From: a virus
Direction: 5' to 3' (one strand)
DNA: 64,000 nucleotides
IMG/VR virus record: IMGVR_UViG_3300027747_004417
Numbering within the stretch: position 1 is the first letter of the stretch; every line of letters starts with the position of its first letter. Below are positions 374 through 57,090 of the stretch, one piece after another. The position numbers and the translations under genes were made by a program. The notes below the pieces were generated by a model. That model saw only the letters and a list, made by a program, of their open reading frames with translations, was not told where the DNA came from and did no database searches.

Positions 374-1741
374 ATGAAAACATTCCTTGAAAGCTTGAAC
401 ATAACCAAGAACACTAGACTATTAGAACAATTGATTTTAAAATTAGAGTACTTAGGAATAGACTCTAACGAATTCTTGGATTGGTACATAGAAGAAGGCA
501 TCAATCTACAGAAAAAAGGTTTATTGATAGAAGGTTTTGATGATTGGGCCTTAAGAGAAGGTATTTGGGATAGTTTCAAAAGTAGATGGTTTGGAGGCAA
601 AAGTTCAGGCCAGGGTCAAGACCACACAGACTCTTCAACAGTGCAAAGAATTAAAAACGCAGGAGAGAGGGCAGGCCAATTCGTCCACAACCAAGGTAAC
701 CGCGTGGGAAAAGCACTTGGGTGGGCTAGAGACGCTTATAATAGTTTTAACAAAGGCGTACAAGGCGATAATTCAAATAACGTAGATAAGCATACTTCTA
801 ATCCTTCTGTTGTAGAAAAAGCTAAAGAAGCTTTGTCTAATTTATCTAAAAGAATACAATATTCTAAACAGCTTCAGTCGATTCTAGGTCGTGACAATGA
901 AAGTATTATACAGCTTTTAAATGCACTCCAAAGCGTCAAAGAATCTTTTGATATAAGAAATAAACTCATTTTTTTGAAGTCTAACGGTTTGGATGTAGAG
1001 CAACTGGTAGAGCTGTTTATACAAGAAAAATCGAATATCAACGAGGGAATAGAAGACTGGTTTGGAAAGGTTGGTGATTGGTTCAAGGGTCAATGGGCAA
1101 ATGTAAAACATGCTTGGAACACTTGGGGCGATGGCCAAGAGGGAGAAGCAGTAAGAAGAGACAAACAAGCTGTGGATAACGCTATGAATGCACTACAAGA
1201 CTTACAGCAAAATAGTAGCAACAATGAAGCCATTTCAAAATTTAAAGATACAATAAACCAAATAATTGATAAAATAAATTCGGCAAAGCAGGCTCTAAAT
1301 CAAACAGGAAGTGAGCCGCAAAACAAACCACAGTCTGCACCACAGCCTGCACAAAACCCAGGTCCAGCTTCAGCAGCTCCTGGAGTTACTGGAGTTACTG
1401 TTTCTTCCACAGCAGGAACGCCTTCCAATCAGGACGGTTCTTCTCAAAGTGGTTGGCTTGGTAGTGGCTCAAATCAAGACGGTTCTTCTCAAAGTGGTTG
1501 GCTTGGTAACAACTCCGGAGATGTACAACAAAATTATTTAGGAAAAACTCAAATGTACGGTCGCCAACCTAAGCCGGGAGTTAAAAAGCCTGCTGGGGGA
1601 TGGCCAAACCCAGGAACTGGTACTACAGATGTGGGCTCAGGAGTTCAAAATAGCTCAACAAACTATGACTCCGATGAAAACAAAAAGTTTCTAGAGTCTT
1701 TGCTACCAAAATCAAACAAGTTCTCTTGGTTTGGATATTAG
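374..1741 (+). CDS. Hypothetical protein, probable head-internal/virion protein with duplicated module and Q/P/G/S low-complexity tail
   Basis: GGAGA SD before ATG at 374. N-terminus MKTFLESL; two EG-(I/F)xDW-F modules; no enzymatic motif recognised. Confidence 0.6.
   Translation: MKTFLESLNITKNTRLLEQLILKLEYLGIDSNEFLDWYIEEGINLQKKGLLIEGFDDWALREGIWDSFKSRWFGGKSSGQGQDHTDSSTVQRIKNAGERAGQFVHNQGNRVGKALGWARDAYNSFNKGVQGDNSNNVDKHTSNPSVVEKAKEALSNLSKRIQYSKQLQSILGRDNESIIQLLNALQSVKESFDIRNKLIFLKSNGLDVEQLVELFIQEKSNINEGIEDWFGKVGDWFKGQWANVKHAWNTWGDGQEGEAVRRDKQAVDNAMNALQDLQQNSSNNEAISKFKDTINQIIDKINSAKQALNQTGSEPQNKPQSAPQPAQNPGPASAAPGVTGVTVSSTAGTPSNQDGSSQSGWLGSGSNQDGSSQSGWLGNNSGDVQQNYLGKTQMYGRQPKPGVKKPAGGWPNPGTGTTDVGSGVQNSSTNYDSDENKKFLESLLPKSNKFSWFGY
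1427..1508 (+). repeat. Two 37-bp direct repeats, 45-bp period (QDGSSQSGWLG x2)
   Basis: aatca(g/a)gacggttcttctcaaagtggttggcttggta at 1427-1463 and 1472-1508. Confidence 0.9.
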
Positions 1742-1815
1742 TGAATGCTCCCACCCCCTAAAGGGAGTGGGCTTCTAAGACATTGCTGTCTAAAGAGTTC
1801 ATCTCTTATAATGAA
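1741..1815 (-). mobile_element. IS200/IS605-type right-end-like hairpin remnant (no transposase or TnpB nearby)
   Basis: Minus strand reads GAAGCCCACTCCC-TTTA-GGGGGTGGGAGCATTCAC: 9-bp stem with one G.U, ending in TTCAC, preceded by two small hairpins. Confidence 0.5.
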
Positions 1816-1989
1816 CTAAGACTTAAGCGTTTCTTTTAAGCCTAAAATTAAATAGTGCACGCAAATTGCAACAAGACATAAACAAGATAAAGCTTCTGTA
1901 ACTTTTAGTGAGTTGAATAGAAGAACACTTAAGTAAGCACAAGACAATATTGGCTGTATTGCGAATAAGAATAGCAATATTTTTGACAT
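1816..1989 (-). CDS. Small two-helix membrane protein (57 aa)
   Basis: Hand translation MSKILLFLFAIQPILSCAYLSVLLFNSLKVTEALSCLCLVAICVHYLILGLKETLKS; ATG 15 nt after the lat stop. Better candidate than the track ORF 1823..2008. Confidence 0.6.
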   Translation of the reverse strand: MSKILLFLFAIQPILSCAYLSVLLFNSLKVTEALSCLCLVAICVHYLILGLKETLKS

Positions 1990-2004
1990 AAAGTATGTAT
2001 GTCT

Positions 2005-3276: not shown

Positions 3277-3587
3277 TAGATATAACCGTCCTTTATAGCC
3301 TTTTTAATATCATCTGCAGTTACTTTTCTACCAACAAAATCAGATACAGACTCTACAAAGTGCTTTTCAATATCTTTTTGTACTGCTTTCATATACATCG
3401 GTCCCATTCTCATTGCTTCTACCAAAGAGTTTATATCGACTTGCCAATCTAAGAGTTCTCCTCCTATGAATATGGCCTTTTCTATTCCCCCGCCTTTGGC
3501 TGGTCTTATTTTAACTTCAAAACTTTTTCTGCCCTCGAACTTTATTGTGTCTTCGTATTCGCTGGAATCTTTTTGTTCTTCTGTCAT
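3276..3587 (-). CDS. Hypothetical protein
   Basis: GGAGG SD; abuts lat start. Confidence 0.7.
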   Translation of the reverse strand: MTEEQKDSSEYEDTIKFEGRKSFEVKIRPAKGGGIEKAIFIGGELLDWQVDINSLVEAMRMGPMYMKAVQKDIEKHFVESVSDFVGRKVTADDIKKAIKDGYI

Positions 3588-3643
3588 TTATCCTCCAATC
3601 TTAATATAGTTATTTTTTTGAATGTTGAAATGGTAAATATATC

Positions 3644-4156
3644 ATGAATAAATTCCTAGAAAGTAGTTTTAAAGACTTGTATTCAAGTACTGTAAACGCT
3701 TTTCCGAAAACAACTAGAAGGCAACACGCTATAGACCCTATAAAAATTGTTAGGCTGGAATGGGTTCCATATGTTGGTCTCAAAACGTTGTTTATAAAAG
3801 GTTTAGCACAAAATACTGAAAACTCAAAGGAATATAACCCTATTCTGCTCTTTAAGAAAATAAACTATTCAAGCGTAAAGGGTAATAATTATATTGAAAT
3901 AAGAGACAACAATGGAAAGAACTACTTACTGGAAAAAATATCAGAAAACGACGTGCTAGTAAGGTGCAGTTGCAAGGACTTCCTTTGGAGAGGAAATTAC
4001 GCAGATCACCTTGATCACTCCCTATACGGCAGAAAAAGGACTGAGTACGCTTCTCAAACCAACAGACCTCCGGTGAATCCCAACAATGACCCTATGGTCT
4101 GCAAGCACGTTATCAAACTTTATAAGGTGATAGAACAATCTGGAATTATAAATTAA
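3644..4156 (+). CDS. SWIM-type Zn-finger-like protein
   Basis: VRCSCKDF...MVCKHV (CxC...CxH). Confidence 0.6.
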   Translation: MNKFLESSFKDLYSSTVNAFPKTTRRQHAIDPIKIVRLEWVPYVGLKTLFIKGLAQNTENSKEYNPILLFKKINYSSVKGNNYIEIRDNNGKNYLLEKISENDVLVRCSCKDFLWRGNYADHLDHSLYGRKRTEYASQTNRPPVNPNNDPMVCKHVIKLYKVIEQSGIIN

Positions 4157-4168
4157 TCAAGGAGGTTT

Positions 4169-4699
4169 ATGAGTTTTGATGAATTCTTAAATGTTTTTAA
4201 GAGGATAGAGGGTATCAAGATAATTGAATCTAAAGATGGTCCATATTTTATTAGCTATTCTGTTTTATTAGATAATACACAAAAAGAAATAGAATTTATA
4301 GTAAATGAACTAAAAAACACTTTTGCTTGCGACATATCACTTCATAATATAGATGACAATTCATTTAAGTTTGTTTTAGGGTCTATAGACTTAGAGTCAA
4401 ACCTAAAATCCATCTCAGAAAAGATATTGGAATTAGTCAGCAAACAAGAAGATAACAGAAAAAGCAAGTACAAAGAGTTTGGTTTACCTGATTTATCCTT
4501 GGTTACCATAAAGCAAATGGTAGAAGAACTAAAAAAGCGTAAAAACTTAGTATTTTCTTTAGTTTGGATAGAGAATAACGAGAGAGATAACATAGCAATA
4601 GAAGGCTCAGGAAACCCTACGCAACTAGTAGGATTGCTTGCTAGGGGCGTTCACATGGCTATCGAATGGGCAGACCGCAGTATAAGATTCAATAAATAA
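4169..4699 (+). CDS. Hypothetical protein
   Basis: AAGGAGG SD; N-terminus MSFDEFL. Confidence 0.75.
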   Translation: MSFDEFLNVFKRIEGIKIIESKDGPYFISYSVLLDNTQKEIEFIVNELKNTFACDISLHNIDDNSFKFVLGSIDLESNLKSISEKILELVSKQEDNRKSKYKEFGLPDLSLVTIKQMVEELKKRKNLVFSLVWIENNERDNIAIEGSGNPTQLVGLLARGVHMAIEWADRSIRFNK

Positions 4700-17856: not shown

Positions 17857-18411
17857 TCACATAGCACTTAGTTGCTGCCCAGACTGTCCTGCTAATGAGG
17901 GTTGATCTGTTAGTTGGGGATCTTTATTTACTGGTGCTCCCGGCATTGGGTCTTTTTCTATATCCTTTTTCTCTTGAGGCGGTTTATATTGATCCCGAAC
18001 AGGCTTGACTGTGTTTGACGTGCCTCTTGAGTCCGATGCACTTTCAATACCTTCTGTTCCTTCTGGCGAAGCAATTTTATTTATTGGGGAACCTATTTTC
18101 TTTACTAGGTTATTCAAGGCATCCGCAGACCCAGAAACAGTCTTTTCTAAATCGCCTTTTTCTTTTACGGCTTTTATGATCGCTACACCAATTTTTTGCA
18201 AATCTTTTAGATAAACTTGGTTCTCTTTTGACCAATAACTGTGTAAGACTCTCCTTATTTGATTGACTATTCTTTCTGAAAATCTGGAGAGGTCCCTTGA
18301 CCCCATCCTTCCAGACTCGCCCTTTAGTTCTTCGGCCGCAGCTAGAATGTCTCCTATCTTTTGGCCAAGATACTGTTTCTGCTCGTTTATTATAAATTCT
18401 TTAAATTTCAT
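17857..18411 (-). CDS. Hypothetical protein with capsid-targeting-like N-terminus
   Basis: MKFKEFIINE; GTGA-type overlap with nrdJ. Confidence 0.7.
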   Translation of the reverse strand: MKFKEFIINEQKQYLGQKIGDILAAAEELKGESGRMGSRDLSRFSERIVNQIRRVLHSYWSKENQVYLKDLQKIGVAIIKAVKEKGDLEKTVSGSADALNNLVKKIGSPINKIASPEGTEGIESASDSRGTSNTVKPVRDQYKPPQEKKDIEKDPMPGAPVNKDPQLTDQPSLAGQSGQQLSAM

Positions 18412-24580: not shown

Positions 24581-24916
24581 TCAAGTTCCAAGTACTTTTT
24601 CTAATACGTCCCAAACGTTATAGGCTTTAAGTTTCATCGAAGGAGCATTTCCCGATGGGCTTCCTCCGCCTGCTCCGCCCATTGGATCTCCCATAGGGCC
24701 TCCTAAAGATGGTGGTGGACCTCCTCCACCTCCTCCCGGCATAGGTGCAGATATTCCTCCTGGTGGCCCTCCTGGTGCTCCTCCTGGTCCTGGTGGTGGC
24801 CCTCCTGGTGCTCCTCCTGGTCCTGGTGGTGGTCCTCCTGGCGGTCCTCCTGGTGGCGGTGGGGCATCAGCCTCCAGCAAGCTTTTAAATTCGATGTATT
24901 CCATGAAGCTTTTCAT
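24581..24916 (-). CDS. Small Pro/Gly-rich protein
   Basis: MKSFMEYIEFKSLLEA followed by repeated PPGGPP/GPGGAPGGPPP; C-terminal WDVLEKV. Confidence 0.7.
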   Translation of the reverse strand: MKSFMEYIEFKSLLEADAPPPPGGPPGGPPPGPGGAPGGPPPGPGGAPGGPPGGISAPMPGGGGGGPPPSLGGPMGDPMGGAGGGSPSGNAPSMKLKAYNVWDVLEKVLGT

Positions 24917-25998: not shown

Positions 25999-26385
25999 AT
26001 GAGCTTTAAAGAATGGGCAGAAAATAGGCTGAAGGTGGAATTCCAAGCACCATTGCAACCACTAAAGAAGTGGAGTGCCAGCAAGGAAGATATACTAAAA
26101 ATGTGGAAGAGTTTGAGCCCTTCTTCCCCAATACTAGTTTCTCCTATCGATGTTGAACATAAAGGTTCTACCTATGGTGAAGACGGTATTAGAATAACAG
26201 GTAGCCCACAGTTCATATATTCAGTTCTATCTAAACTGAAGCCATTTTTAGATTACGAAAATCCGCGAACAAAATTAGCCGTTTCTTATAGAGAGACGCA
26301 GTCGCCCAGCCAGTTAGAAAAAGGCAATCTAAAGAAGTCCTATGTCTTTTATGTGCAGGTCAAGCAAAGAGATGGTTCTAAATAA
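25999..26385 (+). CDS. Hypothetical protein with capsid-targeting-like N-terminus
   Basis: MSFKEWAE; CATAAATA just upstream. Confidence 0.75.
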   Translation: MSFKEWAENRLKVEFQAPLQPLKKWSASKEDILKMWKSLSPSSPILVSPIDVEHKGSTYGEDGIRITGSPQFIYSVLSKLKPFLDYENPRTKLAVSYRETQSPSQLEKGNLKKSYVFYVQVKQRDGSK

Positions 26386-31046: not shown

Positions 31047-31340
31047 ATGCTCTCTTTCGAAGATTTTTTAAGCAATATTAATGAAAACTCCCACGAAAGT
31101 GGCGCCATAAAAGCTATAAGAAATGGAATTGGTATTAACAAAAACTTCTGGGAAGATTTTCTACTTCTTCTAAACAATGCTGAAGCCGTTTCTAGTTTAT
31201 TAGATGTGCCTGTTGAAAAGATTGGAACATGGCATGATTCTATCAAAAAAGCCATGGATGATGTTCATAAGGCTGATGGAGAAATAATCCCTAGAGACAA
31301 AAAGAAACTGTTAAAAACTGGTTTACCGGAGGATTTATGA
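31047..31340 (+). CDS. Hypothetical protein with capsid-targeting-like N-terminus
   Basis: MLSFEDFLSNINE; AAGGGG SD. Confidence 0.7.
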   Translation: MLSFEDFLSNINENSHESGAIKAIRNGIGINKNFWEDFLLLLNNAEAVSSLLDVPVEKIGTWHDSIKKAMDDVHKADGEIIPRDKKKLLKTGLPEDL

Positions 31341-35351: not shown

Positions 35352-36209
35352 CTATGTAGGCGGTAAAGCTTTTCCTTCTACCCTTATGTTTATCCCATCA
35401 TTTTCTAGTCCCTTGGCGTCGATTGGAACCGTTCTTTTAATCCACACAGGGATAACGTCGCCTGGTCTTATTTCTCCTATGCCGTATGCTCCATCTCTAC
35501 TCTCGTAAGGTAAAAACCCAACCCCATAAGGAGGCGTTGTTGCCCGTTCTATCTCAGCAGCCACAGAGTTCACAGGACCACCAGAAACGCTTCTTCCTAT
35601 AGATATGTTCCCATCACCTGGAGCTGGTGATTCAATAGTTAGGCTGTTTGTTCCTTCTTGTAGAATTTCATGATATCGATTTCCGGATGATCCTTGAAAG
35701 TTTATTTCAAATATTATTGTGTCTCCTGATAAAGAAGCTGTGACTGTAACATCTTTTAATCTTGGTAGTGCCCTCATTGCACTTTGTAGGTTTCCGGCCC
35801 AAACAGATGCTGACGAGTTCCAAATTGCCGCAATTTCTGTTGCACTCTCGTAATCAGTGTAGATTACAGAGAAGCTTCCTCTTTTTATTTTACTAAAACT
35901 TGTTATCGTTATAGTTTGTCTTTCATTTATCTCTATAAATCCTAGTTCTACCGTTATGTCGCTATCTGCCCTGTACTCTGTAAACAAAATTGACTCATAC
36001 AAGGTAGCTTCAAAGCTATTGTTGTTTACATAAATACATTTGTAATCTTCCAATCCTACTGTAGACTGTTCCACACTTATATCAGTAAACAGTCTATTTG
36101 CTATAATAGGGTGTGTAGATGGTTCTCCTCCCAAAGAGAGGTCAGAAGAATTATTTTCTGGACCACCGGATAAGGTTATACTTATATCGCCTTCACTTAT
36201 GTAAGCCAT
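35352..36209 (-). CDS. Probable virion structural protein
   Basis: LSGG..N...SLGG, DY.CIYV.N, IGEI.PG..IPVWIKRTVP; beta-rich. Confidence 0.55.
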   Translation of the reverse strand: MAYISEGDISITLSGGPENNSSDLSLGGEPSTHPIIANRLFTDISVEQSTVGLEDYKCIYVNNNSFEATLYESILFTEYRADSDITVELGFIEINERQTITITSFSKIKRGSFSVIYTDYESATEIAAIWNSSASVWAGNLQSAMRALPRLKDVTVTASLSGDTIIFEINFQGSSGNRYHEILQEGTNSLTIESPAPGDGNISIGRSVSGGPVNSVAAEIERATTPPYGVGFLPYESRDGAYGIGEIRPGDVIPVWIKRTVPIDAKGLENDGINIRVEGKALPPT

Positions 36210-36499
36210 TGTTTACCTTTTAAAATGTATCTTATGTTTCTTGTAGAGTAACCTGTGAACTCTGCAATCTCTTTTATGCCCCATCCTAATTTAGCTAAGC
36301 TTTCAACTTTTTTATGACTTGTTTTTAATCTATTTGGCTCAACGTCATTTAATCTCAATATTCGATATATTTCTCCTATTGATTTGTTTGAAGCCTTGGC
36401 TATTTCGTTTATAGACATTTTAGGGTTTTGAAGATACATTCCGACTATTATTTTATTGTCTTTTTCTTGACCGTTTAAAAAATCATAAAAGTCTTCCAT
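36197..36499 (-). CDS. Tandem HTH protein
   Basis: MSINEIAKASNKSIGEIYRIL and WGIKEIAEFTGYSTRNIRYIL. Confidence 0.75.
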   Translation of the reverse strand: MEDFYDFLNGQEKDNKIIVGMYLQNPKMSINEIAKASNKSIGEIYRILRLNDVEPNRLKTSHKKVESLAKLGWGIKEIAEFTGYSTRNIRYILKGKQWLT

Positions 36500-39201: not shown

Positions 39202-40098
39202 ATGAGCAAAAAAGTTTTCGTGACGGGGGCCACAGGATTCATTGGACATCACTTGTGCAACAAGTTGTATGAGGAGGGTTATAGAGTATTTGCCTCAGGA
39301 AGAAAAGACGAGAACAAGATAAAATGTCATGAATTTCATACATGCAGTTTAAGAAACATTCCTTGGGATGACCTGCCTAAGATCGATATTTGCTTTCATT
39401 TAGCTGCTAATAACGATGTAAGGAGCAAAAAGGAGTTCGATATTATGGACATTAATTATCATACCTCGATTAACGTGTTTAAGAACTTGTCTGAAAGAGG
39501 ATGTTCAAGGTTTGTATACTCTTCCTGCTGCTTCGTCTATGGTGATCAACCTGGTTCTTTAAATGAGGATGCCACTCCTTTAAACGGCTCAGGTTATTAT
39601 TCTAAATCAAAAATATCATTTGAGAAATTTGTCAAAGATTTTTCTTTTAGAACAAAGTCCGTTTGCGTAGGCCTCAGATACGCTAGTGTTTATGGCACTC
39701 ATGAGCTACACAAGAAATCCTTCGCCAGTGCAATTAGTCAAATTGTACAGAAGATTCAAAAAAATGAAAGGCCTAAAATCTTTGGAGACAGCAACCAGGA
39801 AAAAGATTGGGTCTACATCAATGACGTTATAGATGCCAATATTTTGGCTTCAAAGTATGATTACACTGATATATTCAATATAGCTTCTGGTAACAAGGTA
39901 AGCTTGAATAAAGTTGTTTCTATAGTGAATAAAAGATTCAATAAGAATATTATTCCTGAATATCTAGATAATAAATTCAATGAACCCACCCAAAATAGTT
40001 CTTCCATAAGTATGGAAAAATCTCGGAGTAAATTGAGGTATTCCCCTAATTATACTGTTGAAGATGGAGTTCAAGATATGAAAATGAAGCTTACTTAG
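39202..40098 (+). CDS. NAD-dependent nucleotide-sugar epimerase/dehydratase (HldD/GalE-like)
   Basis: VTGATGFIG, HLAA, YSKSK (YxxxK), LRYASVYG, DWVYINDV. Confidence 0.9.
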   Translation: MSKKVFVTGATGFIGHHLCNKLYEEGYRVFASGRKDENKIKCHEFHTCSLRNIPWDDLPKIDICFHLAANNDVRSKKEFDIMDINYHTSINVFKNLSERGCSRFVYSSCCFVYGDQPGSLNEDATPLNGSGYYSKSKISFEKFVKDFSFRTKSVCVGLRYASVYGTHELHKKSFASAISQIVQKIQKNERPKIFGDSNQEKDWVYINDVIDANILASKYDYTDIFNIASGNKVSLNKVVSIVNKRFNKNIIPEYLDNKFNEPTQNSSSISMEKSRSKLRYSPNYTVEDGVQDMKMKLT

Positions 40099-41255
40099 TT
40101 CTTGTCTGTTAGCTTCTTTCTTTTTCCTACCTTGGCGGCTTTTCTTTCTGCGTTTAAAGGTTTACCAACTGAGTCCATGTCGTAGTGGCTGCTTGAAAAG
40201 CTGCCCTTATCCTTAAGCTGTTCACCGGTTGGTACCTTTTTCATTACTACCACAACCCATCCTTTGTCCCTCTTTACAGCTTTGCCTCCATGATCTTCTG
40301 TTGCTGCGTTAGCTTGTGCTAAGTCTGAAAAGACTCTTTCTTTGCCGTCCTTACCCTTTAGAACATACTTATCGCCATCATCACGCCAGTTTTGTGGTTT
40401 GAACCACGCAGCCTCTTTTAGGTCCATCCCGAAGCTAGTTGCTATCTTTCCTGATGGAGCGAATCCTACTTCGCCTGGGGCTGGCTCTCTAACTGCTACA
40501 GTAAGATTGTCTACATCTACTGGAGTAAAATGTTGGCTTTGAAAAATTCCTCCAAATCCGTCATCAAATTTTTGTGCTGGATCGGAGATCATGCCATTTA
40601 CAGAGTTCCACCATTCGGTTTCTTCTTTTTTCATCTTCTTCTTTTTTCTAAGCATTTCGAAATCTTCAGCGTCTAGCTTGCCGTTTTTGTTTAAGTCTAG
40701 CTTTTTTTGTGCACCTTTAAGCATTTTCTTTTTTGATTTCTTGCTGAACTTCATTTCTGCTTCTGCTTCGGCGTCGTTTTCGTCTTCTTCGGTGTCTTCT
40801 TCTGAGTCATCCTCGTCAGCTTCTTCTTCTTCTTCTTCTTCTTCTTCTTCTGAATCGTCGCCTTCTTCATCAGCGTCTTCTTCTGTTTCTTCTTCTGAAT
40901 CGTCACCTTCTTCTTCTTCTTCTTCCTCTTCAGAATCTTCTTCTGTCTCTTCTTCGTCTTCGTAGTTGTCGTCCTCATCTGACCACATCTTTTTCTTGGA
41001 CATCTTGCCACACATTTTGCCGCAATTTTTACCGCACATTTTGCCGCAAGTCTTTTTGCCGTCTTTATCTTCTTCTTTTACTTCTACCTCAACCTTTGGA
41101 TGCTTTTTTCCTTTTTTTGCTTCCGCTAGTTCGTTTTCTTCTATATCGAATCCGTTTTGCATTACCATTCCAATTTTAGAAGGATTTGCGAGTCCTAGAT
41201 TGAAGCTAGGAAGTATTGATTCATTGAGGTTTTTCCATTGTTTATAAGACAGCAT
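40095..41255 (-). CDS. Highly acidic protein, probable prohead core/internal protein
   Basis: MLSYKQWKNLNES; (CGKM)x4; long E/D tract; EF-hand-like DLNKNGKLDAEDF. Confidence 0.65.
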   Translation of the reverse strand: MLSYKQWKNLNESILPSFNLGLANPSKIGMVMQNGFDIEENELAEAKKGKKHPKVEVEVKEEDKDGKKTCGKMCGKNCGKMCGKMSKKKMWSDEDDNYEDEEETEEDSEEEEEEEEGDDSEEETEEDADEEGDDSEEEEEEEEEEADEDDSEEDTEEDENDAEAEAEMKFSKKSKKKMLKGAQKKLDLNKNGKLDAEDFEMLRKKKKMKKEETEWWNSVNGMISDPAQKFDDGFGGIFQSQHFTPVDVDNLTVAVREPAPGEVGFAPSGKIATSFGMDLKEAAWFKPQNWRDDGDKYVLKGKDGKERVFSDLAQANAATEDHGGKAVKRDKGWVVVVMKKVPTGEQLKDKGSFSSSHYDMDSVGKPLNAERKAAKVGKRKKLTDKN

Positions 41256-45327: not shown

Positions 45328-45534
45328 ATGAAAACATTTTTAGATTGGGCTGGCGAAGAAAAGAAAGAACTGCCAATTTACAAGATAGAAGAAAAGACCC
45401 ATCGTGCTGGAATCGCAAGCTGGGCCTATCCTGACGCATACGCACGTCAGCAATATCCTGATGCCTACTTCCTGCCAATAGCAGCAGACGCAATGCAGAA
45501 GATGGGCGATCACAAACCAAGTCGTAAAGCTTAA
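45328..45534 (+). CDS. Small protein with capsid-targeting-like N-terminus
   Basis: MKTFLDWAGEE; AAGGA SD. Confidence 0.7.
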   Translation: MKTFLDWAGEEKKELPIYKIEEKTHRAGIASWAYPDAYARQQYPDAYFLPIAADAMQKMGDHKPSRKA

Positions 45535-46451: not shown

Positions 46452-47180
46452 ATGAAGGGAATTATTCTCGCGGGAGGCACCGGATCAAGGCTTCACCCCT
46501 TGACTAAGGTCACAAACAAATGCCTTCTTCCCCTTTATGATAGGCCAATGATATATTGGCCTATTAACACCTTAGTGTCGAGCAACATAAGAGATATTCT
46601 CTTAGTTTGTGGTGGGAATGCCGCCGGAGAGTTTTTAAGAATATTAGGCAATGGCGAAGACTTTGGGCTTAAGCATCTTCACTATACTTATCAAAGGGAG
46701 CCAAGAGGCATCGCAGACGCACTTGCACTTGCTGAAGAGTGGGCTAACGAAGAGCCAGTGACTGTAATATTAGCCGACAATATCTTTGAAAAAGACATTT
46801 CAAGCGTAGTAAGCGAGTTTAGCGAAAACCCTGAAGGGGCTAGAATTTTTGTATACCCTGTAGACGATCCACAATCTTACGGGGTGGTAGAAATCAAGAA
46901 CAACATAATAGTTAGCATAGAAGAAAAGCCTAAAGCTCCTAAGTCTAATTTCATAGCTACCGGACTGTATATGTATGATAAAGAAGTCTGGAGCCTTCTT
47001 AGAAAACTAAAGCCTTCTCAACGAAATGAGCTGGAAATAACGGATCTAAACAACTTATACCTAAAAGATAAAAAACTTAAAGCACACAAGGTATCAGGTT
47101 GGTGGTCCGATGCTGGTGAAAGCATAGAAGGTTATAATGATTGCTGTTGCAAGATACGAGAGATCAATCTAAAAAACTAG
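46452..47180 (+). CDS. rfbA: Glucose-1-phosphate thymidylyltransferase
   Basis: GIILAGGTGSRLHPLT, NKCLLP.YD.PMI, QREPRGIADA, EEKP, ELEITD, W.DAG. Confidence 0.92.
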   Translation: MKGIILAGGTGSRLHPLTKVTNKCLLPLYDRPMIYWPINTLVSSNIRDILLVCGGNAAGEFLRILGNGEDFGLKHLHYTYQREPRGIADALALAEEWANEEPVTVILADNIFEKDISSVVSEFSENPEGARIFVYPVDDPQSYGVVEIKNNIIVSIEEKPKAPKSNFIATGLYMYDKEVWSLLRKLKPSQRNELEITDLNNLYLKDKKLKAHKVSGWWSDAGESIEGYNDCCCKIREINLKN

Positions 47181-47770
47181 CTTTTTGGCCCACGCTTCAG
47201 CGGAACAGGCTTTAGCTTCTCTGTGTGGTTGTTGGGTTTATCTTTTAATGAATTCATCATGTTATGAAGATCTTTCGATATCTCTGCGGCATTGTCTGAT
47301 GAGCATTTGTCTGATTTTTGAATATTCACAGTTCTTTTGCTTTTGTTGTAAAAGCCTCTGCTTACGACAAAGCATTCATGGTCGGGATTCCAAGATACCA
47401 ATCCAACCCACTCCCCATCATCCCAGTTTCTAGAAGACACTAAAAGCCTTAAAGGTTTTTCTGTAAATACATGTTTGGTATGATAACCATGCTTCTTTAG
47501 GGCTGCACTTACGTAACCCAAGCAGATTTTTGCGAATCCTTCTAATGCTTCTTCTTTTTTAGTTCTATAGTTTACTTCTATCGAATACCTAGATAACTCG
47601 ACTGACTCTACAATAGGCTTGATTAAATAATCAGAATAGCTGACCAAAGAGTCAGATAGTGTGTAATCAAAGTAACTCTTACACACCTCAACAAAGTCTT
47701 CCTTTGTTGTGAGCACTTTTTTTAGATTTTGACTTTTCTTCCAATCATCATATTTTTTCATATTTCTCAC
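47177..47770 (-). CDS. Hypothetical protein
   Basis: MKKYDDWKK near N-terminus; overlaps the neck gene stop. Confidence 0.7.
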   Translation of the reverse strand: MRNMKKYDDWKKSQNLKKVLTTKEDFVEVCKSYFDYTLSDSLVSYSDYLIKPIVESVELSRYSIEVNYRTKKEEALEGFAKICLGYVSAALKKHGYHTKHVFTEKPLRLLVSSRNWDDGEWVGLVSWNPDHECFVVSRGFYNKSKRTVNIQKSDKCSSDNAAEISKDLHNMMNSLKDKPNNHTEKLKPVPLKRGPKS

Positions 47771-48678: not shown

Positions 48679-51666
48679 ATGTCTTTGATTTCTTTTGGTA
48701 CTTTTAGAGAGATGGCTGCTCCGAGCATTACTGCTCTTAGACGTGGTACAAAATCCATTCCTCTTGAACTTAACTACGGAGATCGCCCTCGCCGTCCTCA
48801 CATGCCAGACGACAGATTAGATAGAGAGTTTTTAAGTCAGTTTGAGCTCAAGGAATACACAGGAGCCTGGACAGAAAGACTTAAGTACTTCATGACAGAG
48901 ATAAACCCTAAATTGCAATCTATTCTAGAAGACGAAATAAACAAGCTTGGTGTTAGAGAATCTCTAGCCATGTATCTAAGCACAGGAAGAGAATCAAAAG
49001 GGTTAGCTCCTATCCCACCCAAGGTTAAAGAACATGTTAAAGAAAACTACGGAGAAATAGAAGGACAGGGTATAAATGTTCCTGTACCAAGTACCGACGA
49101 TGTTGAGGGACTTAGAAAAAAGATATATGACGCCTTAAGTGATTTAAAGCACAAGTCCTCTTCCGACACAATGCCTTTAGGACTAAGTCCAGAAGACGTT
49201 CAAAACATACATAGCGTTTTAGGCGAATTAGATAAGAAAGAATACGACCGCACTGCCGTGGTGAAGAAGCTTCAAGAAATATACAAGAAACTCTACCGTA
49301 TTGTTTTCCTAGAAGAACATGCTCATAGCATACTTTATGAAATAGTCAAAGAAAACGTAGACAGCAGAGAGTTTTGGAAGAAGCACGGATTAGACCCAGA
49401 GACTATCACAGTCCCAATCCCAGTTTCTGGTTCTAAGGGAGAAGGCAGAACAGGCGATAAGGCACGCCGCACTTTTAAACCTTATTTCTTTGAATTGTAC
49501 CACAAACTTGAAAGAGAACCAGGAAAGGAACATATTCCTGAGCTAAAGGGCAAAATCGGGCCAGGCTTGGGATATGATCTTAAGTCTCCAAAATCGGAGC
49601 TTGAGGACGATGGCACTCCAAGGTTCACTACTCATGGATCTAACTTTGCTTTAAGATACAATAAAACAGACGATTTCTTTGTAAGATGGATACAAGATAA
49701 TTCCTACGGTCTTCATGGTCCAATCTCTAGAGAGTTGTCTTCGCCTGATTCTGACGTAGTTTTCATGAGCTCCACTCGCTCCTCTAGCGGTAAGAAGCTA
49801 TTCGAAGATCCTCTTTATGATTGGTTGTTTGACGACTTGGTTTCTAAAATAAAAATACATCTTAAGAAAGAAAAAACAGACTCAGGAGAGCAAATAAGAC
49901 AATCAGATTGCTACAAAAAAGACAAAAAAGGTAATTCTGTAATGTTGAGTCCGGATGCTTGTGCCAAAAGAATTGCAGAAAAAATTCTTAAAAAGTTTAT
50001 CAAGCAAGGAGGTTTAGTTGCTCCAGCGTTTCCTTGTGAAGGTAATAAAAAACATGGCATTCCTTGCCCTACTGTTGAGGACAGAACTTATAAGGTTGAT
50101 TCTAAAGGCGAAATAATAACACCGCCTTTGTACATTCCTCATGAAGTTGTAGTAGACCCAAAAACTAACCGAAAGAAATTTGTTCCACTCCTTAGGCCTC
50201 ACTTTCCTTTAAAGCCAATAGATCCTCAAAAGTTTGCAAAAGACTATGAGGCATCTATCGAGCGTATATCAAGTAACTTTGAAGATGGAACCTTTAAACA
50301 CTCTCTAGAGCTCCAAGGCTTGGATGACACAGATGCAACTGACGATGATGATAAAGATCATGATATTGTTAAGAGCATGTTGGATGACGATGGCAAATTA
50401 AGACTAAACATCCCAGCGACAATGCCCTTTGACATAGAAGGCTCAGATGCTGGAAATAGAGGGGGAGATACATCTATTCCTGGAATGAGACTCGGACAGG
50501 TTTATAATCTGGCCGGAGCTAGGTCTTCTATATTTCCTGAAAACCCTCGCGGAAGAGAGGTAGTAACTAAGTATCTACAAAGAGCAGGAACTGGGGCGTA
50601 TAGCAATATGGTCCCTGCTTTTGCACATGGAATAAACGCTTGCACAGGCAGCGGAAAGTGTGGTGGTGCCAACAAGAACCTAAAAATGTGCCTGCGAGCA
50701 GCATTCCCTGTTGTGCATGAAATAATTTATAGAAGTGCTTTAGCTTCTCTCGCCGATATAAAGGCTAGCGGAGAAGCTGACGAACTGCTTTCACAAGAAA
50801 GCGGCAAGGTAGAAGATCGAAATATGGCAGGGTTTGCATTCAATATAGTTTCTACTATAGCACAACACCCAGAAAAATATTACATTGACTTAGACGACGC
50901 TAAAGAAGTTTTGCAAAGAAGAGGTATAACAATAAAGGACAACTTTAAAGGATATACTAGAAGAAGTGGATATAAAGGCAATGTAGCAGACGTAGAAGAC
51001 GGCCCAGGAGGAGATATAGATTCTGATGTTGGCTATATTTCTTCTGGAGAAGATGATCTTCCAAAGCAGAGAGGTGCTAGATCGAAAAAAGCCGGTATTT
51101 CATCCCAAGAAGTTTTTCTTCATACTAATGCGACTAGGGCTGAAATTGAGCAAATTTTGAACATGGCATTGTCAGCCCAGAGAGCGGCTGAAGGTGGTTC
51201 TAATATTCCAAGAGACCTTAGTAGCCTCTCCTCAGAAGAGTTGGGCGGTATTATAAAAGACATATTTGTAAAAACTTATGAAGACAAGGATAAGTTCTTA
51301 AAAGATGTTGAGACTTATCTTAGAAGTAAAGCTGTACCATCAGATGAAGTAATAAGTTTAATGTCAAACTGGCGTGATTCATCTATAGAAGAAATAGTAG
51401 ATGCATTAAGAAAGATGTACGACGCACCAAAGGCGGTAAAGAAACCTGCTGCTGCACCATCTTTTGCCAGGCCTAAAGCCCCTGTCACATCTCCTGGTCT
51501 TTTGAGCAGGGTTCGTGCGGCTAGAAAAGAAGATCAACCCGCTCAGGTGCCCCAATCCGTTCCTCCAACCGGAACGCAGCCAGAAACTACGGTCGATTGG
51601 CACTTTTTAAAACAACTTCCTTTAAGTGAACGGGCAAACTACTTGAGAGAAAAACTTAGTCGCTAG
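48679..51666 (+). CDS. Large hypothetical protein (995 aa), possible internal/ejected protein
   Basis: MSLISFGTFREMA; no catalytic motif recognised. Confidence 0.75.
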   Translation: MSLISFGTFREMAAPSITALRRGTKSIPLELNYGDRPRRPHMPDDRLDREFLSQFELKEYTGAWTERLKYFMTEINPKLQSILEDEINKLGVRESLAMYLSTGRESKGLAPIPPKVKEHVKENYGEIEGQGINVPVPSTDDVEGLRKKIYDALSDLKHKSSSDTMPLGLSPEDVQNIHSVLGELDKKEYDRTAVVKKLQEIYKKLYRIVFLEEHAHSILYEIVKENVDSREFWKKHGLDPETITVPIPVSGSKGEGRTGDKARRTFKPYFFELYHKLEREPGKEHIPELKGKIGPGLGYDLKSPKSELEDDGTPRFTTHGSNFALRYNKTDDFFVRWIQDNSYGLHGPISRELSSPDSDVVFMSSTRSSSGKKLFEDPLYDWLFDDLVSKIKIHLKKEKTDSGEQIRQSDCYKKDKKGNSVMLSPDACAKRIAEKILKKFIKQGGLVAPAFPCEGNKKHGIPCPTVEDRTYKVDSKGEIITPPLYIPHEVVVDPKTNRKKFVPLLRPHFPLKPIDPQKFAKDYEASIERISSNFEDGTFKHSLELQGLDDTDATDDDDKDHDIVKSMLDDDGKLRLNIPATMPFDIEGSDAGNRGGDTSIPGMRLGQVYNLAGARSSIFPENPRGREVVTKYLQRAGTGAYSNMVPAFAHGINACTGSGKCGGANKNLKMCLRAAFPVVHEIIYRSALASLADIKASGEADELLSQESGKVEDRNMAGFAFNIVSTIAQHPEKYYIDLDDAKEVLQRRGITIKDNFKGYTRRSGYKGNVADVEDGPGGDIDSDVGYISSGEDDLPKQRGARSKKAGISSQEVFLHTNATRAEIEQILNMALSAQRAAEGGSNIPRDLSSLSSEELGGIIKDIFVKTYEDKDKFLKDVETYLRSKAVPSDEVISLMSNWRDSSIEEIVDALRKMYDAPKAVKKPAAAPSFARPKAPVTSPGLLSRVRAARKEDQPAQVPQSVPPTGTQPETTVDWHFLKQLPLSERANYLREKLSR

Positions 51667-53332: not shown

Positions 53333-53402
53333 GGTTCTTGAATGTGGGCTAAATTTGTTCTAGAATATAATAGCAAACAATCTAACCCAAGGCAACAACA
53401 CT

Positions 53403-55048: not shown

Positions 55049-55101
55049 TGATAAATCCTTTCTTTTCTTTATAATGTATATATTGACTTGAGGGACAACT
55101 C

Positions 55102-55521
55102 ATGAACACAAGGGATCCAAGGCTTCTTTTAACAATCTCCCACTACATTTATCTAACGAGGGAGCAAAGATATCAAGCCTTTGAGGGCCAAACTTTAGAG
55201 GTTATAGGAGTGAATGTCCCCGTCTGGTTTAAGGGTGGAAGCACAAGCGAACCAGCCAAAGAAGTATTTTGTAAGTACATTATATCTAAAGAATTAGACA
55301 CTTTTGGTCTTTCTACGTTTGAAGAAGGCTATAAAATCAATCTTGGAAACATTCAAAAAGGGGTTGATGTTGGAAAACTTTTGGACTTTAAAGATAAAGG
55401 AGCCCAAGAACTGACTGCTAAAGGGTACGGAAATGTCAACATAGGTGGAAAGCTTTTTAATGCCTTTCACTGCTTAGAAATTAAGCCAATAGAGCTATTG
55501 ATGGATACTCTAGTCAACTAA
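55102..55521 (+). CDS. Hypothetical protein
   Basis: GAGGG SD. Confidence 0.7.
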   Translation: MNTRDPRLLLTISHYIYLTREQRYQAFEGQTLEVIGVNVPVWFKGGSTSEPAKEVFCKYIISKELDTFGLSTFEEGYKINLGNIQKGVDVGKLLDFKDKGAQELTAKGYGNVNIGGKLFNAFHCLEIKPIELLMDTLVN

Positions 55522-56015
55522 GAGAGTGAAAGTGCCATTCTAAGGTTCACAGAATCTCCACTCGTTAAAGTAACGCTTTGAGATAATGCTGCCGAGGACA
55601 CAAGCACTCCAGAAGATCCTGCTGAGGTTGCTAAGAAGATATTGCTCACAGGTCCCCATGATCCCCCAGATGCAGAAAATGTCATTATTGAACTTGAAGC
55701 TCTATACGAACCGTTTACAAGTTCAACATTAAAACCAGTTAAAGAGGACCTAGCCTGTCTGCTGTATCCATTTGTTGTAGGTTCATCTAATAAGTCCGCT
55801 AGTTCGTCGCTATTAGATATTGCTGCTCTATTGTCTAGGCCAAAGTAGTATTCGTCTGGTGGATATGATCCATTGTTGTTGAAACAACATTTTAAAAGGA
55901 ATTCCTCTCCTTTTAAATGAATTTGGTTATAAATGTTTTCTTGTTTCCATATAACCCTAGATCCTCTTATGTGTTCGACGCTTAGCAGTTTTAGTATCCC
56001 ATTCCAGTTCTTCAT
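55518..56015 (-). CDS. Probable tail/baseplate-associated structural protein
   Basis: EPTTNGYSRQA, TFSASGGSWGPV..IFL, LTSGDSV. Confidence 0.65.
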   Translation of the reverse strand: MKNWNGILKLLSVEHIRGSRVIWKQENIYNQIHLKGEEFLLKCCFNNNGSYPPDEYYFGLDNRAAISNSDELADLLDEPTTNGYSRQARSSLTGFNVELVNGSYRASSSIMTFSASGGSWGPVSNIFLATSAGSSGVLVSSAALSQSVTLTSGDSVNLRMALSLS

Positions 56016-56215
56016 TGGCCCCTCTCTGAATCTATTCTTAAGGCCTTTCTTTCTTCGCTTTTTGCGGATCTTTTTTCTCTTCTATTTTCTATAGACTCAA
56101 TTTTAGTTATAGCTAAGTTTATATAACGTTTTACCTCAAAAAGAGCAAAGTCATTAGGTACTTTCTTTAGGGCCTTCTTGAGAGCTTCCTTTAGTTCTTC
56201 TGTGTTGTCTTTCAT
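56012..56215 (-). CDS. Hypothetical protein
   Basis: ATGA overlaps on both sides. Confidence 0.65.
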   Translation of the reverse strand: MKDNTEELKEALKKALKKVPNDFALFEVKRYINLAITKIESIENRREKRSAKSEERKALRIDSERGQ

Positions 56216-57090
56216 ATTTTTTCTATAAACCTTATTTGAGCTTCCTTTGATCCAACAATGTATATTTCTTCTATTTTAAGTAGGTTATTTTCTTCTATTT
56301 TGATTTTCCATCTACTTTTATCTTCCTTAACGCTACTTAATATAGTTCCTTCGGGCAAATAACACCTTTGTCCTAGGACCATTTCTTTTTTCTTGCATTC
56401 TAAAAGCTTGTTGTTTTGGTAAGAAGAGTCTACATAGAAAGTTGATATTTTTTTGTTATTGTTATATTCTTTTAATGCTTTAATCAATGCTTCGCAAGCT
56501 TCGGAGTATTTAGAATCTAGCACTTTTCCTGAAAGATCTTCAATGGAAACTATGATGCTTTTTTCCCCTTCTACATAAACAAGAACCTCTTCAATACCAA
56601 TCCCCTCTGTTAAAACTGCTTCCAATTTTATGTCATAATTTCTCCATCGTATTTTCTTTGCGACGGATTCTATCTTACTTGCTAGTCCCTTTATTTTATT
56701 CTTATAGTGCTCCTCATGAGCGTCTATTGATTGGCCTATATCGTCTTCGCTCGCAGGAACGTAATAACCTGCTTCTAGGTTTTCCATTAAGTTTATGAGT
56801 TTTTTGCATTTTGGATCTTTTTTAGATTCGTTCCAATCCTTCAATTTTTCTAGCTGCTTGCTTATGCTCACCGGATTATCTGCCGCTATTGATATTCTTA
56901 CTATTTCTTCATGTGGATAAGACACTTCTTTGAGTAGAGAGGTTATCTCTTCTTTGCAAACGATATCCTTCAGGTTAACACCTTCATTTATTTTTTTGTT
57001 TATTTGCTTCCAAAGGTGGTTCTTGTATACTTCTAAGCATACTTCCACCTTCATCTGTTCTTTGTAATTTATATATTTTTGATATGACAT
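56212..57090 (-). CDS. Hypothetical protein
   Basis: MSYQKYINYKE; TAAATA just upstream; follows terL. Confidence 0.7.
   Translation of the reverse strand: MSYQKYINYKEQMKVEVCLEVYKNHLWKQINKKINEGVNLKDIVCKEEITSLLKEVSYPHEEIVRISIAADNPVSISKQLEKLKDWNESKKDPKCKKLINLMENLEAGYYVPASEDDIGQSIDAHEEHYKNKIKGLASKIESVAKKIRWRNYDIKLEAVLTEGIGIEEVLVYVEGEKSIIVSIEDLSGKVLDSKYSEACEALIKALKEYNNNKKISTFYVDSSYQNNKLLECKKKEMVLGQRCYLPEGTILSSVKEDKSRWKIKIEENNLLKIEEIYIVGSKEAQIRFIEKI

What the first reader, a model, noticed from the sequence alone, without database searches (positions are those of the whole stretch)
374..57090. T4-like capsid-targeting N-terminal motif shared by many unrelated proteins
Seen: recurring starts of the form M-x(0-3)-(F/Y)-x-(E/D/Q)-(F/W/Y)...E: MKTFLES (374), MSFDEFL (4169), MKFKEFIINE (18411), MKSFMEYIE (24916), MSFKEWAE (25999), MLSFEDFL..INE (31047), MNKFSFEHYY (31337), MEDFYDFL..QE (36499), MLSYKQW..LNE (41255), MKTFLDWAGEE (45328), MKKYDDW (47761), MSLISFGTFRE (48679), MSYQKY..KE (57090). 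Known: T4 internal proteins carry MKTYQEFIAE, which directs packaging into the prohead and is removed by gp21 cleavage after Glu. Inference: this phage packages a large, genome-dispersed set of mostly unknown proteins for injection, and the motif predicts that injected proteome from sequence alone.
Basis: partly seen in the sequence, partly recalled or inferred. Interest (0 to 1): 0.78.

Follow-up and report, generated by a model that had tools for sequence, protein, structure and literature searches.

The report
Expanded T4-like capsid-address tag
About one gene in eight in this stretch of a huge uncultured T4-related phage starts with a short peptide that matches the key residues of the signal phage T4 uses to load proteins into its head. 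The phage therefore probably pre-packs dozens of unrelated, mostly basic proteins for injection, although no packaging has been measured.

Summary
That pattern sits at 8 of 78 unbiased gene starts (plus 2 at alternative Met codons) against about 0.4 expected.

It replicates in independent relatives and is absent from phiKZ:
- LR756511 (595 kb): 40 observed, 7.5 expected.
- Three IMG/VR contigs: 27 vs 3.2, 6 vs 0.6 and 12 vs 0.8.
- 45 metagenomic head-gene loci: 71 vs 5.4.

In T4 the same pattern picks out all three internal proteins.

The tag is strictly N-terminal and is selected at the protein level. It sits on unrelated bodies that are mostly basic. Its two aromatic residues fall where T4's targeting determinants lie (residues 4 and 7). 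One third of tags end in a gp21-type L/I-x-E site at residues 10-12. Relatives carry a T4-order head module with an intact S77 protease, and one tagged gene lies inside that module.

Best reading (about 0.6): a T4-type capsid-targeting propeptide expanded to 5-13% of genes. Packaging, cleavage and injection remain untested. The window holds no protease, and I could not check its own genome for one.

New here: tagged genes are strongly linked to a promoter-like box 4-6 nt before the ATG, which implies leaderless mRNAs.

This scan had already noted similar tags in other windows of this genome and in other huge phages.

The parts
4169..4699 (+). Tagged gene, 176 aa, acidic body (pI 5.5)
   Evidence: Fits the formula. 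The G001 orthologue keeps the tag. No Pfam or PHROG hit.
17857..18411 (-). Tagged gene, 184 aa, basic body (pI 9.0). Tag ends in I-N-E at residue 10.
   Evidence: Scores 17 bits on a PWM trained only on relatives. LR and G001 orthologues keep the tag. L/I-x-E site ends at residue 10.
24581..24916 (-). Tagged gene, 111 aa from the Met at 24916, Pro/Gly-rich body
Evidence: PWM 12.6 bits at the alternative Met.
25999..26385 (+). Tagged gene, 128 aa, basic (pI 9.6), with a leaderless-type box 5 nt upstream
   Evidence: Best PWM score in the window, 18.2 bits. TAAATA box at 5 nt. The G001 orthologue is tagged.
31047..31340 (+). Tagged gene, 97 aa from the Met at 31047. Tag ends in I-N-E at residue 13.
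   Evidence: Fits the formula at the alternative Met. PWM 6.6 bits. LR and G001 orthologues have tag-like starts.
36197..36499 (-). Tagged HTH protein, 100 aa, pI 10.1, box 4 nt upstream
   Evidence: Pfam HTH_24. PWM 10.7 bits. LR and G001 orthologues are tagged, while BLAST alignment to the LR orthologue starts only at residue 18.
40095..41255 (-). Tagged 386-aa protein with a long poly-Glu/Asp region. Tag ends in L-N-E at residue 12.
   Evidence: PWM 14.3 bits. The first 12 residues are identical in G002 and nearly identical in G001, although the bodies diverge. Sequence shown.
45328..45534 (+). Tagged gene, 68 aa, basic (pI 9.1)
   Evidence: Fits the formula. PWM 7.2 bits. Orthologues in LR, G001 and G002 all keep the tag.
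47177..47761 (-). Tagged gene, 194 aa from the Met at 47761, member of a very large conserved family
   Evidence: More than 1000 homologues. Trp-7 is invariant and Phe/Tyr-4 dominant, while residues 8-50 vary and are missing in the LR, G001 and G002 orthologues. In the AF2 model the tag is a separate short helix, residues 4-10.
374..1741 (+). Possible variant tag (Phe-4, Glu-6, Leu-8, but Ser at 7), 455 aa
   Evidence: Does not fit the formula. The N-terminus is conserved with G001 although overall identity is only 29%.
3644..4156 (+). Possible degenerate tag, 170 aa, pI 9.5, box 4 nt upstream
   Evidence: LR and G001 orthologues carry a clean tag ahead of the same conserved segment. The window copy lacks the second aromatic.
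31337..33583 (+). UvrD-like helicase with a diverged tag-like leader
   Evidence: PHROG DNA helicase. Does not fit the formula, but the G002 orthologue starts with a clean tag placed directly before the shared segment.
48679..51666 (+). 995-aa protein with a shifted variant (aromatics at residues 6 and 9, Glu-11)
   Evidence: Does not fit the formula. The N-terminal pattern is conserved in G001 and G002 orthologues at 22-24% overall identity.
56212..57090 (-). 292-aa protein next to the terminase, variant tag (Tyr-3, Tyr-6, Ile-7, Glu-11), box 3 nt upstream
   Evidence: Does not fit the formula because of Lys between the aromatics. The G002 orthologue has the same layout. Box shown.
57107..58936 (-). 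T4-type large terminase (context: places the phage in the T4-like lineage)
   Evidence: PHROG terminase large subunit. 52.7% identical to LR756511 and 77-79% to IMG/VR contigs.

Best explanation
The tag is a T4-type capsid-targeting propeptide that this clade of huge T4-related phages has put on many unrelated genes.

Consensus: M-x-x-F-x-(E/Q/D)-(W/F/Y)-(L/F/V/I), often followed by Glu near residue 9-12. Proposed mechanism: the roughly 12-residue N-terminal amphipathic helix has Phe-4, Trp-7 and Leu-8 on one face and acidic residues on the other. It docks the new protein onto the scaffolding core while the prohead assembles. After the shell closes, the gp21-type serine protease cuts after a Glu at about residue 10-12. 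The mostly basic bodies stay with the DNA and enter the host with it.

Shown here:
- The tag is real, strictly N-terminal and conserved at the protein level.
- It is modular, attached to unrelated bodies.
- It carries a gp21-type site at a fixed distance in a third of cases.
- The bodies are basic.
- Relatives have the T4-order head module.

Inferred: docking to the core, cleavage, retention in the virion and injection.
For: 1. Enrichment and replication. Window 8-10 vs about 0.4 expected; LR756511 40 vs 7.5; G001 27 vs 3.2; G002 6 vs 0.6; G003 12 vs 0.8; 45 head-module loci 71 vs 5.4. phiKZ and immuto show none.

2. Strictly N-terminal. With a PWM trained on relatives, 102/1693 N-termini score above 10 bits against 7/5580 internal Met sites.

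3. T4 benchmark. The same formula hits 7 of 245 T4 genes and includes all three internal proteins. The review PMC9026906 places targeting at CTS residues 4 and 7 and processing at residues 8 and 10. Those are the positions of the two aromatics and of the hydrophobic residue and Glu here.

4. Cleavage-type site. Among 93 tags, [LIVM]-x-E ends 6-8 residues after the first aromatic in 33%. The figure is 8% after internal copies of the same core and 12% in untagged N-termini (P 9e-10 and 8.5e-8). Glu at +8 is 34% vs 8%. Asn at P2 is enriched (23% vs 5%). The clade's MCP propeptides carry L-N-E at residue 10 and (M/F)-N-E just before the mature domain, where T4 has L-T-E-65.

5. Head machinery in relatives. 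LR, G002 and G003 have portal, a 614-aa protein, S77 protease with His-85/Ser-140 equivalents, a scaffold-like coiled coil and gp23 MCP in T4 order.

6. A tagged gene inside the head module. A small gene on the opposite strand lies 2-2.7 kb upstream of the protease. Of 21 distinct copies, 13 fit the formula and 5 more show near-tags (by reading the listed N-termini). Thirteen have a gp21-type site ending at residue 9-13, mostly L-x-E at 10-12.

7. Modularity. Bodies are unrelated within each genome. Orthologues keep the tag while the following linker varies or is deleted.

8. Basic bodies. Median pI is 8.9 vs 6.2 for other proteins (P 2e-10). T4 IPs are 9.4, 9.6 and 7.9.

9. Protein-level selection. 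Phe codons TTT:TTC are 23:14, like the genome. Third-position information is low at unconstrained codons, and upstream DNA is not shared.
Against: - No virion proteomics exists for any member, so packaging, cleavage and injection are inference.
- The window contains no protease, scaffold, MCP or portal. This phage's own genome could not be searched.
- Only a third of tags have a canonical L/I-x-E site.
- T4's own CTS scores only 2-4 bits on the clade PWM, because it has Tyr rather than Phe and lacks Trp.
- T4 also has CTS-like starts on proteins not annotated as virion components: gp61.1, 57B and rI.-1.
- Some tagged or near-tagged proteins look like replication or repair enzymes. Examples are the helicase, a PD-(D/E)xK nuclease, an HTH protein and, in LR, a CCA-type nucleotidyltransferase. 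These could equally be recruited to another hub.
- MCP, scaffold, portal and protease themselves do not carry the tag.
Confidence: 0.6

Rival explanations
1. The tag is a short docking motif for a different hub, not the prohead core. Candidates are a replication or transcription factor, a chaperone, a phage-built compartment or filament, or a protease adaptor. It would mark a co-regulated class of mainly DNA-binding proteins that stay in the infected cell.
For: Tagged bodies are basic. They include HTH, helicase, nuclease and RNA-repair-type enzymes. Half the tagged genes in LR share one promoter-like architecture, so they form an expression class. That box also precedes homologues of T4 genes 41 and 46, which are not late genes in T4. 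T4 has similar starts on proteins not annotated as virion components.
Against: The match to the mapped T4 CTS determinants, the fixed-distance L/I-x-E sites shared with the MCP propeptide, and the tagged gene conserved inside the head module are not predicted by this reading. No alternative hub is identified.
Confidence: 0.22
2. The shared start is a by-product of expression signals. Either the first codons are constrained for translation of leaderless mRNAs, or the nascent peptide tunes initiation.
For: In LR, 21/40 tagged genes have TA[ATG]ATA ending 3-12 nt before the ATG (peak 4-6), against 48/897 other genes (P 3e-15). This is replicated in G001 and G003. GAA is somewhat over-used for the conserved Glu, 22:2.
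Against: About 30 of the genes with the box have no tag. Nineteen of 40 tagged LR genes have no box, and 12 have a strong Shine-Dalgarno. Conservation follows residue class (aromatic; acidic or amide), with synonymous and non-synonymous codon variety. Third codon positions are uninformative where the residue is free. In G002, 0 of 6 tagged genes have the box.
Confidence: 0.07
3. The tagged genes are diverged paralogues of one family, or carry one recombining exon-like N-terminal module. The shared start would then reflect common descent and have no sorting function.
For: The T4 internal proteins differ in their bodies but share a conserved CTS (PMC3012670). Two body-similar pairs exist in G001.
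Against: No body similarity exists among the 15 window, 40 LR, 6 G002 or 12 G003 tagged proteins. There is no shared DNA in or upstream of the tag. The aromatics are held over more than 1000 homologues of one family while neighbouring residues drift, which indicates purifying selection on function.
Confidence: 0.06
4. Chance, N-terminal composition bias or gene-start artefacts.
For: The motif was defined after looking at this window. One hit (38285) is a start miscall. N-termini are somewhat rich in Phe and Lys.
Against: Shuffles that keep each N-terminus's composition give a mean of 0.93 and a maximum of 6, against 8 observed. Independent genomes replicate the enrichment at P down to 1e-52. 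Control phages show no excess.
Confidence: 0.02

Closest known systems
Capsid targeting sequence (CTS) of phage T4 internal proteins IPI, IPII, IPIII (Mullaney & Black 1996, as reviewed in PMC9026906 and PMC3012670)
   Same: It occupies the extreme N-terminus, is about 10-12 residues long and starts M-K-T-(Y/F). Aromatics sit at residues 4 and 7, the mapped targeting determinants, followed by a hydrophobic residue at 8 and a Glu soon after. It is attached to unrelated, mostly basic bodies. The genomic background has a T4-order head module and an S77 protease.
   Different: Scale: 5-13% of genes (8-15 in this 64-kb window, 27-40 per relative genome or contig) against three in T4. Trp dominates at position 7, and Glu is more often at residue 12 than 10. 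Only a third have a canonical L/I-x-E site. Bodies include enzymes and proteins up to about 1000 aa. Half are coupled to a leaderless-type promoter box, which the T4 ip genes lack. No experimental proof exists.
Long N-terminal propeptides of head and ejection proteins in phiKZ-like giant phages (SPN3US, phiKZ, 201phi2-1; PMC5694885)
   Same: Many head-internal proteins are loaded and trimmed by a prohead protease after Glu. Propeptides are proposed to target proteins into the prohead. Two SPN3US paralogues share an identical 15-residue start.
   Different: Those propeptides are mostly 80-160 residues long, lack a common short consensus and are cut at A/S/G-x-E. phiKZ shows no enrichment of the present motif (2 vs 2.0) and no S77 hit.
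CTS-like basic internal proteins of other T-even phages (T2, T6 and others; PMC9026906, PMC3012670)
   Same: A variable set of unrelated injected proteins is united only by a conserved CTS and is thought to counter host defences.
   Different: [quoted passage not shown] Here the tagged genes are dispersed across a genome of several hundred kb, and dozens carry the tag.

Membership tests
T4-type capsid targeting sequence (CTS) | Sits at the extreme N-terminus of the precursor | tested here: met
   A PWM trained on relatives scores above 10 bits at 102/1693 N-termini against 7/5580 internal Met positions. In the window, 0 of 286 internal Met positions match.
T4-type capsid targeting sequence (CTS) | Aromatic residues at positions 4 and 7, the targeting determinants mapped in IPIII | tested here: met
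   PMC9026906 gives residues 4 and 7. In 93 tags the first aromatic is Phe in 84 and Tyr in 9. The residue three positions later is Trp in 47, Phe in 29 and Tyr in 17. The initiator Met lies three residues before the first aromatic in 58. These two positions are fixed by the selection formula. Independent support comes from the 47177 family, where Trp-7 is invariant and Phe/Tyr-4 dominant.
T4-type capsid targeting sequence (CTS) | Processing determinants: hydrophobic residue 8 and Glu at about 10, forming an I/L-x-E site for gp21 | tested here: inconclusive
   The residue after the second aromatic is L, F, V, I or M in 65 of 93. [LIVM]-x-E ends at the matching distance in 33%, against 8-12% in controls. 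The enrichment is clear, but two thirds lack the canonical site. gp21 also cuts x-x-E more weakly (PMC12991175).
T4-type capsid targeting sequence (CTS) | Attached to otherwise unrelated protein bodies | tested here: met
   All-against-all BLASTP of bodies from residue 17 on finds 0 similar pairs in the window, LR, G002 and G003, and 2 in G001.
T4-type capsid targeting sequence (CTS) | The phage encodes a gp21-type (Peptidase_S77) prohead protease and a T4-type core (scaffold, gp23 MCP, gp20 portal): relatives | tested here: met
   LR756511, G002 and G003 have the module in T4 order, with the catalytic His and Ser kept. Eighty further protease loci were found in metagenomes.
T4-type capsid targeting sequence (CTS) | The same protease and core in this window's own genome | not testable with these tools
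   None lies in the window. No whole genome is held. Synteny with G002 and unchecked first-stage notes (e1-5876102, e1-5876098) place the head module just beyond the window's end.
T4-type capsid targeting sequence (CTS) | Tagged proteins are physically incorporated into proheads, trimmed, and injected | not testable with these tools
   The phage is uncultured. No proteomic data were available.
phiKZ-type long head-protein propeptides | Propeptides of about 80-160 residues cut at A/S/G-x-E by a phiKZ-type protease | tested here: not met
   Positional signal in the tag fades after about 12 residues. The relatives' protease is S77/T4-type. phiKZ has neither the motif excess nor an S77 hit.

The most novel reading that the evidence does not exclude
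This clade of freshwater huge phages has turned the T4 capsid-targeting signal into a genome-wide cargo code. At least 5% of all genes would be loaded into the capsid and co-injected, including DNA-binding proteins, a helicase, nucleases and RNA-repair-type enzymes. Many of these genes are expressed from leaderless promoters as one class. If so, the injected proteome of an uncultured phage could be read directly from sequence.
Probability: 0.4. Interest if true: 0.85.

Novelty: new variant of a known kind. Interest (0 to 1): 0.7.

Why it matters
Proteins injected with phage DNA act before any phage gene is expressed. In T4 they include anti-restriction factors: IPI acts against GmrSD, and IPIII is needed to infect one E. 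coli strain (PMC3012670, PMC9391042).

If the tag works as in T4, it gives a sequence-only list of dozens of candidate first-strike proteins per genome in uncultured huge phages. Most have no known family, so this would be a rich source of anti-defence and host-takeover functions. It would also show that very large capsids carry a large and varied protein cargo by a simple, evolvable address label.

The tag could also serve as a handle for loading foreign proteins into capsids of this clade, as the T4 CTS does.

The link to a promoter-like box 4-6 nt before the ATG additionally points to widespread leaderless transcription in a T4-related phage. None of the papers I read mentions this, though I ran no search on it.

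Tried and rejected
- **Shared DNA module.** Upstream regions and tag codons of the window's tagged genes share no sequence beyond what the residues force.
- **Box as a stop codon.** The TA[ATG]ATA box is the upstream gene's stop codon in only 8/61 cases in LR and 0 in G001 and G003.
- **Box as the T4-type late promoter.** Too few T4 homologues exist to decide. The box precedes MCP and terminase at 24-48 nt but also precedes gp41- and gp46-like genes. An exact TATAAATA is not enriched.
- **Scaffold mimicry** (lead from note e1-5408298). Scaffold N-termini in LR, G002 and G003 share the register (hydrophobic 4, Glu 6, Leu 8) but lack the second aromatic. I saw no repeat of the tag inside the scaffold. 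This is weak and unresolved.
- **Function of tagged proteins.** Pfam and PHROGs give nothing for most. The AF2 model of the 47177 protein has no PDB match.
- **Finding this phage's own protease.** No genome is held. The window's sequence is absent from viral contigs and metagenome contigs. None of the 80 protease loci overlaps the window.
- **Window hit at 38285.** Rejected as a start miscall.
- **Literature.** No open-access paper links the CTS to huge or jumbo T4-like phages beyond the SPN3US work.

Full report
**What the window is.** The 64-kb window is a densely coded phage fragment with about 78 genes on both strands. It has a T4-type large terminase (57107-58936, minus strand), a ribonucleotide reductase, a gp46/SbcC-like nuclease subunit, a Mre11-like partner, a primase and helicases. 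Its nearest public record is the 595-kb uncultured phage LR756511.1, with terminase 52.7% identical and partial synteny. Closer relatives are IMG/VR contigs G001 (381 kb, 79%), G002 (89 kb, 77%) and G003 (137 kb, 70%). Sixty-nine of the 78 window proteins have a homologue in at least one of these.

**Checking the observation.** All 13 quoted N-termini are present at the cited starts. I called genes with a motif-blind script that uses codon usage, overlap and a Shine-Dalgarno/start-codon score.
- It matches 0 of 286 internal Met positions.
- The interior rate of the core predicts about 0.4-0.5 hits.
- In 5000 shuffles of residues 2-15 of every protein, the mean is 0.93 and the maximum 6.
- One extra hit (38285) is a start miscall.

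**Independent replication.** The motif was defined on this window, so I tested it elsewhere with the same caller.

| Source | Observed | Expected |
|---|---|---|
| LR756511 | 40 | 7.5 |
| G001 | 27 | 3.2 |
| G002 | 6 | 0.6 |
| G003 | 12 | 0.8 |
| 45 metagenomic head-module loci (755 kb) | 71 | 5.4 |
| phiKZ | 2 | 2.0 |
| Flavobacterium phage immuto | 2 | 1.6 |
| Mel-JY01 | 6 | 2.1 |
| KVP40 | 6 | 2.8 |
| T4 | 7 | 1.7 |

P values are 1e-16 for LR756511 and 1e-52 for the head-module loci. A PWM trained only on the relatives scores above 10 bits at 102 of 1693 N-termini against 7 of 5580 internal Met sites. It scores above 10 bits at 0-1 genes in each control phage. In the window it ranks 25999, 18411, 41255, 24916 and 36499 above 10 bits, and 45328 and 31047 at 6-7 bits.

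**The T4 benchmark.** I fetched T4 and found that the seven hits include ipI, ipII and ipIII, which are all three annotated internal virion proteins. The review PMC9026906 states that in IPIII targeting depends mainly on residues 4 and 7, and processing on residues 8 and 10. In the pooled 93 tags:
- The first aromatic is Phe in 84 and Tyr in 9.
- The residue three positions later is Trp in 47, Phe in 29 and Tyr in 17.
- The next residue is hydrophobic in about 70%.
- The initiator Met is three residues before the first aromatic in 58 cases, which puts the aromatics at 4 and 7.

**A cleavage-type site at the tag's end.** T4 gp21 cuts after Glu in I/L-x-E and more weakly in x-x-E (PMC12991175). 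In the 93 tags, [LIVM]-x-E ends 6-8 residues after the first aromatic in 33%. The figure is 8% after internal copies of the same core and 12% at the same place in untagged N-termini (P 9e-10 and 8.5e-8). Glu at +8 is 34% against 8%, and positional signal fades after that. Asn is over-represented at P2 (23% vs 5%). The MCPs of LR, G002 and G003 carry L-N-E at residue 10 and (M/F)-N-E directly before the conserved mature domain, where T4 has L-T-E-65. In the window, I/L-N-E ends the tag at 18411, 31047 and 41255.

**Head machinery.** The window holds no protease, scaffold, MCP or portal. LR756511 has them in T4 order: portal with an intein, a 616-aa protein, Peptidase_S77 (96 bits), a 310-aa coiled-coil gene at the scaffold position, and gp23-type MCP. 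G002 and G003 have the same module 13-17 kb from the terminase. The T4 catalytic His-85 and Ser-140 are conserved. None of these core proteins carries the tag.

However, a small gene on the opposite strand lies 2-2.7 kb upstream of the protease, where T4 has its small core genes. Of 21 distinct copies from 24 loci, 13 fit the formula and 5 more show near-tags (by reading the listed N-termini). Thirteen have a gp21-type site ending at residue 9-13, mostly L-x-E at 10-12.

I could not verify the protease in this phage's own genome. Synteny with G002 and unchecked first-stage notes place the portal about 4 kb beyond the window's end.

**Modularity and selection.**
- Bodies behind the tag are unrelated within each genome.
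- Orthologues keep the tag while the segment after it is unalignable or deleted.
- The 47761 protein belongs to a family of more than 1000 members. Trp-7 is invariant and Phe/Tyr-4 dominant, but residues 8-50 vary and are missing in LR, G001 and G002.
- In its AF2 model (pLDDT 78) the tag is a separate short helix.
- Codon choice at the conserved residues follows genome usage, and upstream DNA is not shared. The constraint is therefore on the peptide.

**An independent property.** Excluding the first 15 residues, tagged proteins have a median pI of 8.9 against 6.2 for all others (P 2e-10). Sixty-six percent are above pI 8, against 33% of the others. T4 IPs are 9.4, 9.6 and 7.9. Tagged proteins with a recognisable domain:
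- In the window: an HTH protein.
- In LR: a C39-like peptidase, a phosphoribosyltransferase-like protein, a CCA/poly(A)-type nucleotidyltransferase, a HAD of the RNA-repair kind and a cyclic phosphodiesterase.

**Unexpected link to expression.** In LR, 21 of 40 tagged genes have TA[ATG]ATA ending 3-12 nt before the ATG, against 48 of 897 others (P 3e-15). The spacing peaks sharply at 4-6 nt. This is replicated in G001 (8/27 vs 19/470) and G003 (6/12 vs 10/146) but not in G002. The box is rarely the upstream stop codon. It often lies between divergent genes whose ATGs are only about 17-21 nt apart. That layout fits a promoter giving leaderless mRNAs. I could not tell whether it is a late promoter. 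Tag and box are separable in both directions, so the peptide is not explained by the box.

**Verdict.** The best reading is a T4-type capsid-targeting propeptide expanded to roughly 12-19% of the genes in this window and 4-8% in the relatives (confidence about 0.6). The main rival is a docking motif for another hub shared by a co-regulated class of basic proteins (about 0.2). This scan had already noted the same kind of tag in other windows of this genome and in other huge phages. I found no open-access paper describing it.

Noticed in passing
Window starts at 25999, 36499, 24916, 3644, 57090, 15065 and 41300; LR756511 genome-wide (L004-L033): A promoter-like box TA[ATG]ATA ends 4-6 nt before the ATG of about 60 LR genes and about 10 window genes, usually without a Shine-Dalgarno. 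This implies leaderless mRNAs. It is strongly associated with the tag (P 3e-15 in LR).
   Followed up: partly
LR756511 gene pairs starting at 71293/71311, 192679/192700 and 473532/473554: Divergent gene pairs have start codons only about 17-21 nt apart, with a central palindromic TATATA. This looks like a bidirectional leaderless promoter.
   Followed up: partly
T4 NC_000866: 18966-19130 (gp61.1), 73952-74410 (57B), 58819-59205 (rI.-1): T4 itself has CTS-like N-termini on proteins not annotated as virion components. gp61.1 scores higher on the clade PWM (11.2 bits) than the three internal proteins do.
   Followed up: no
L033:680-2206, L033:2920-3582, L024:11779-12324 (LR756511): Three tagged LR proteins are RNA-repair-type enzymes: a CCA/poly(A)-type nucleotidyltransferase, a HAD_SAK_1 and a tRNA-ligase-type cyclic phosphodiesterase. 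Two of them lie about 700 nt apart. If packaged, they could counter anticodon nucleases on entry.
   Followed up: partly
window 40095-41255 (-): The tagged 386-aa protein has a run of more than 100 mostly Glu/Asp residues and short Cys-Gly-Lys-Met repeats. Its first 12 residues are identical in G002 and nearly identical in G001, although the bodies diverge.
   Followed up: no
window 24581-24916 (-): The tagged 111-aa protein consists mostly of Pro/Gly low-complexity sequence. No homologue was found in the four relatives.
   Followed up: no
window 47177-47761 (-): This protein belongs to a very large conserved family (more than 1000 clusters at 57-89% identity). It has no Pfam or PHROG hit, and its confident alpha/beta model has no PDB match. 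It looks like a core gene of unknown function in this phage clade.
   Followed up: partly
LR756511 531014-533587 and 242240-243133: The LR portal gene carries an intein (PF14890). A second, weak S77-like paralogue (35 bits, 297 aa) lies far from the head module.
   Followed up: no
window 38285-39004 (-): The longest-ORF start is probably wrong, because orthologues in G001 and G002 begin at its Met-18. The apparent motif at this start is therefore spurious.
   Followed up: yes
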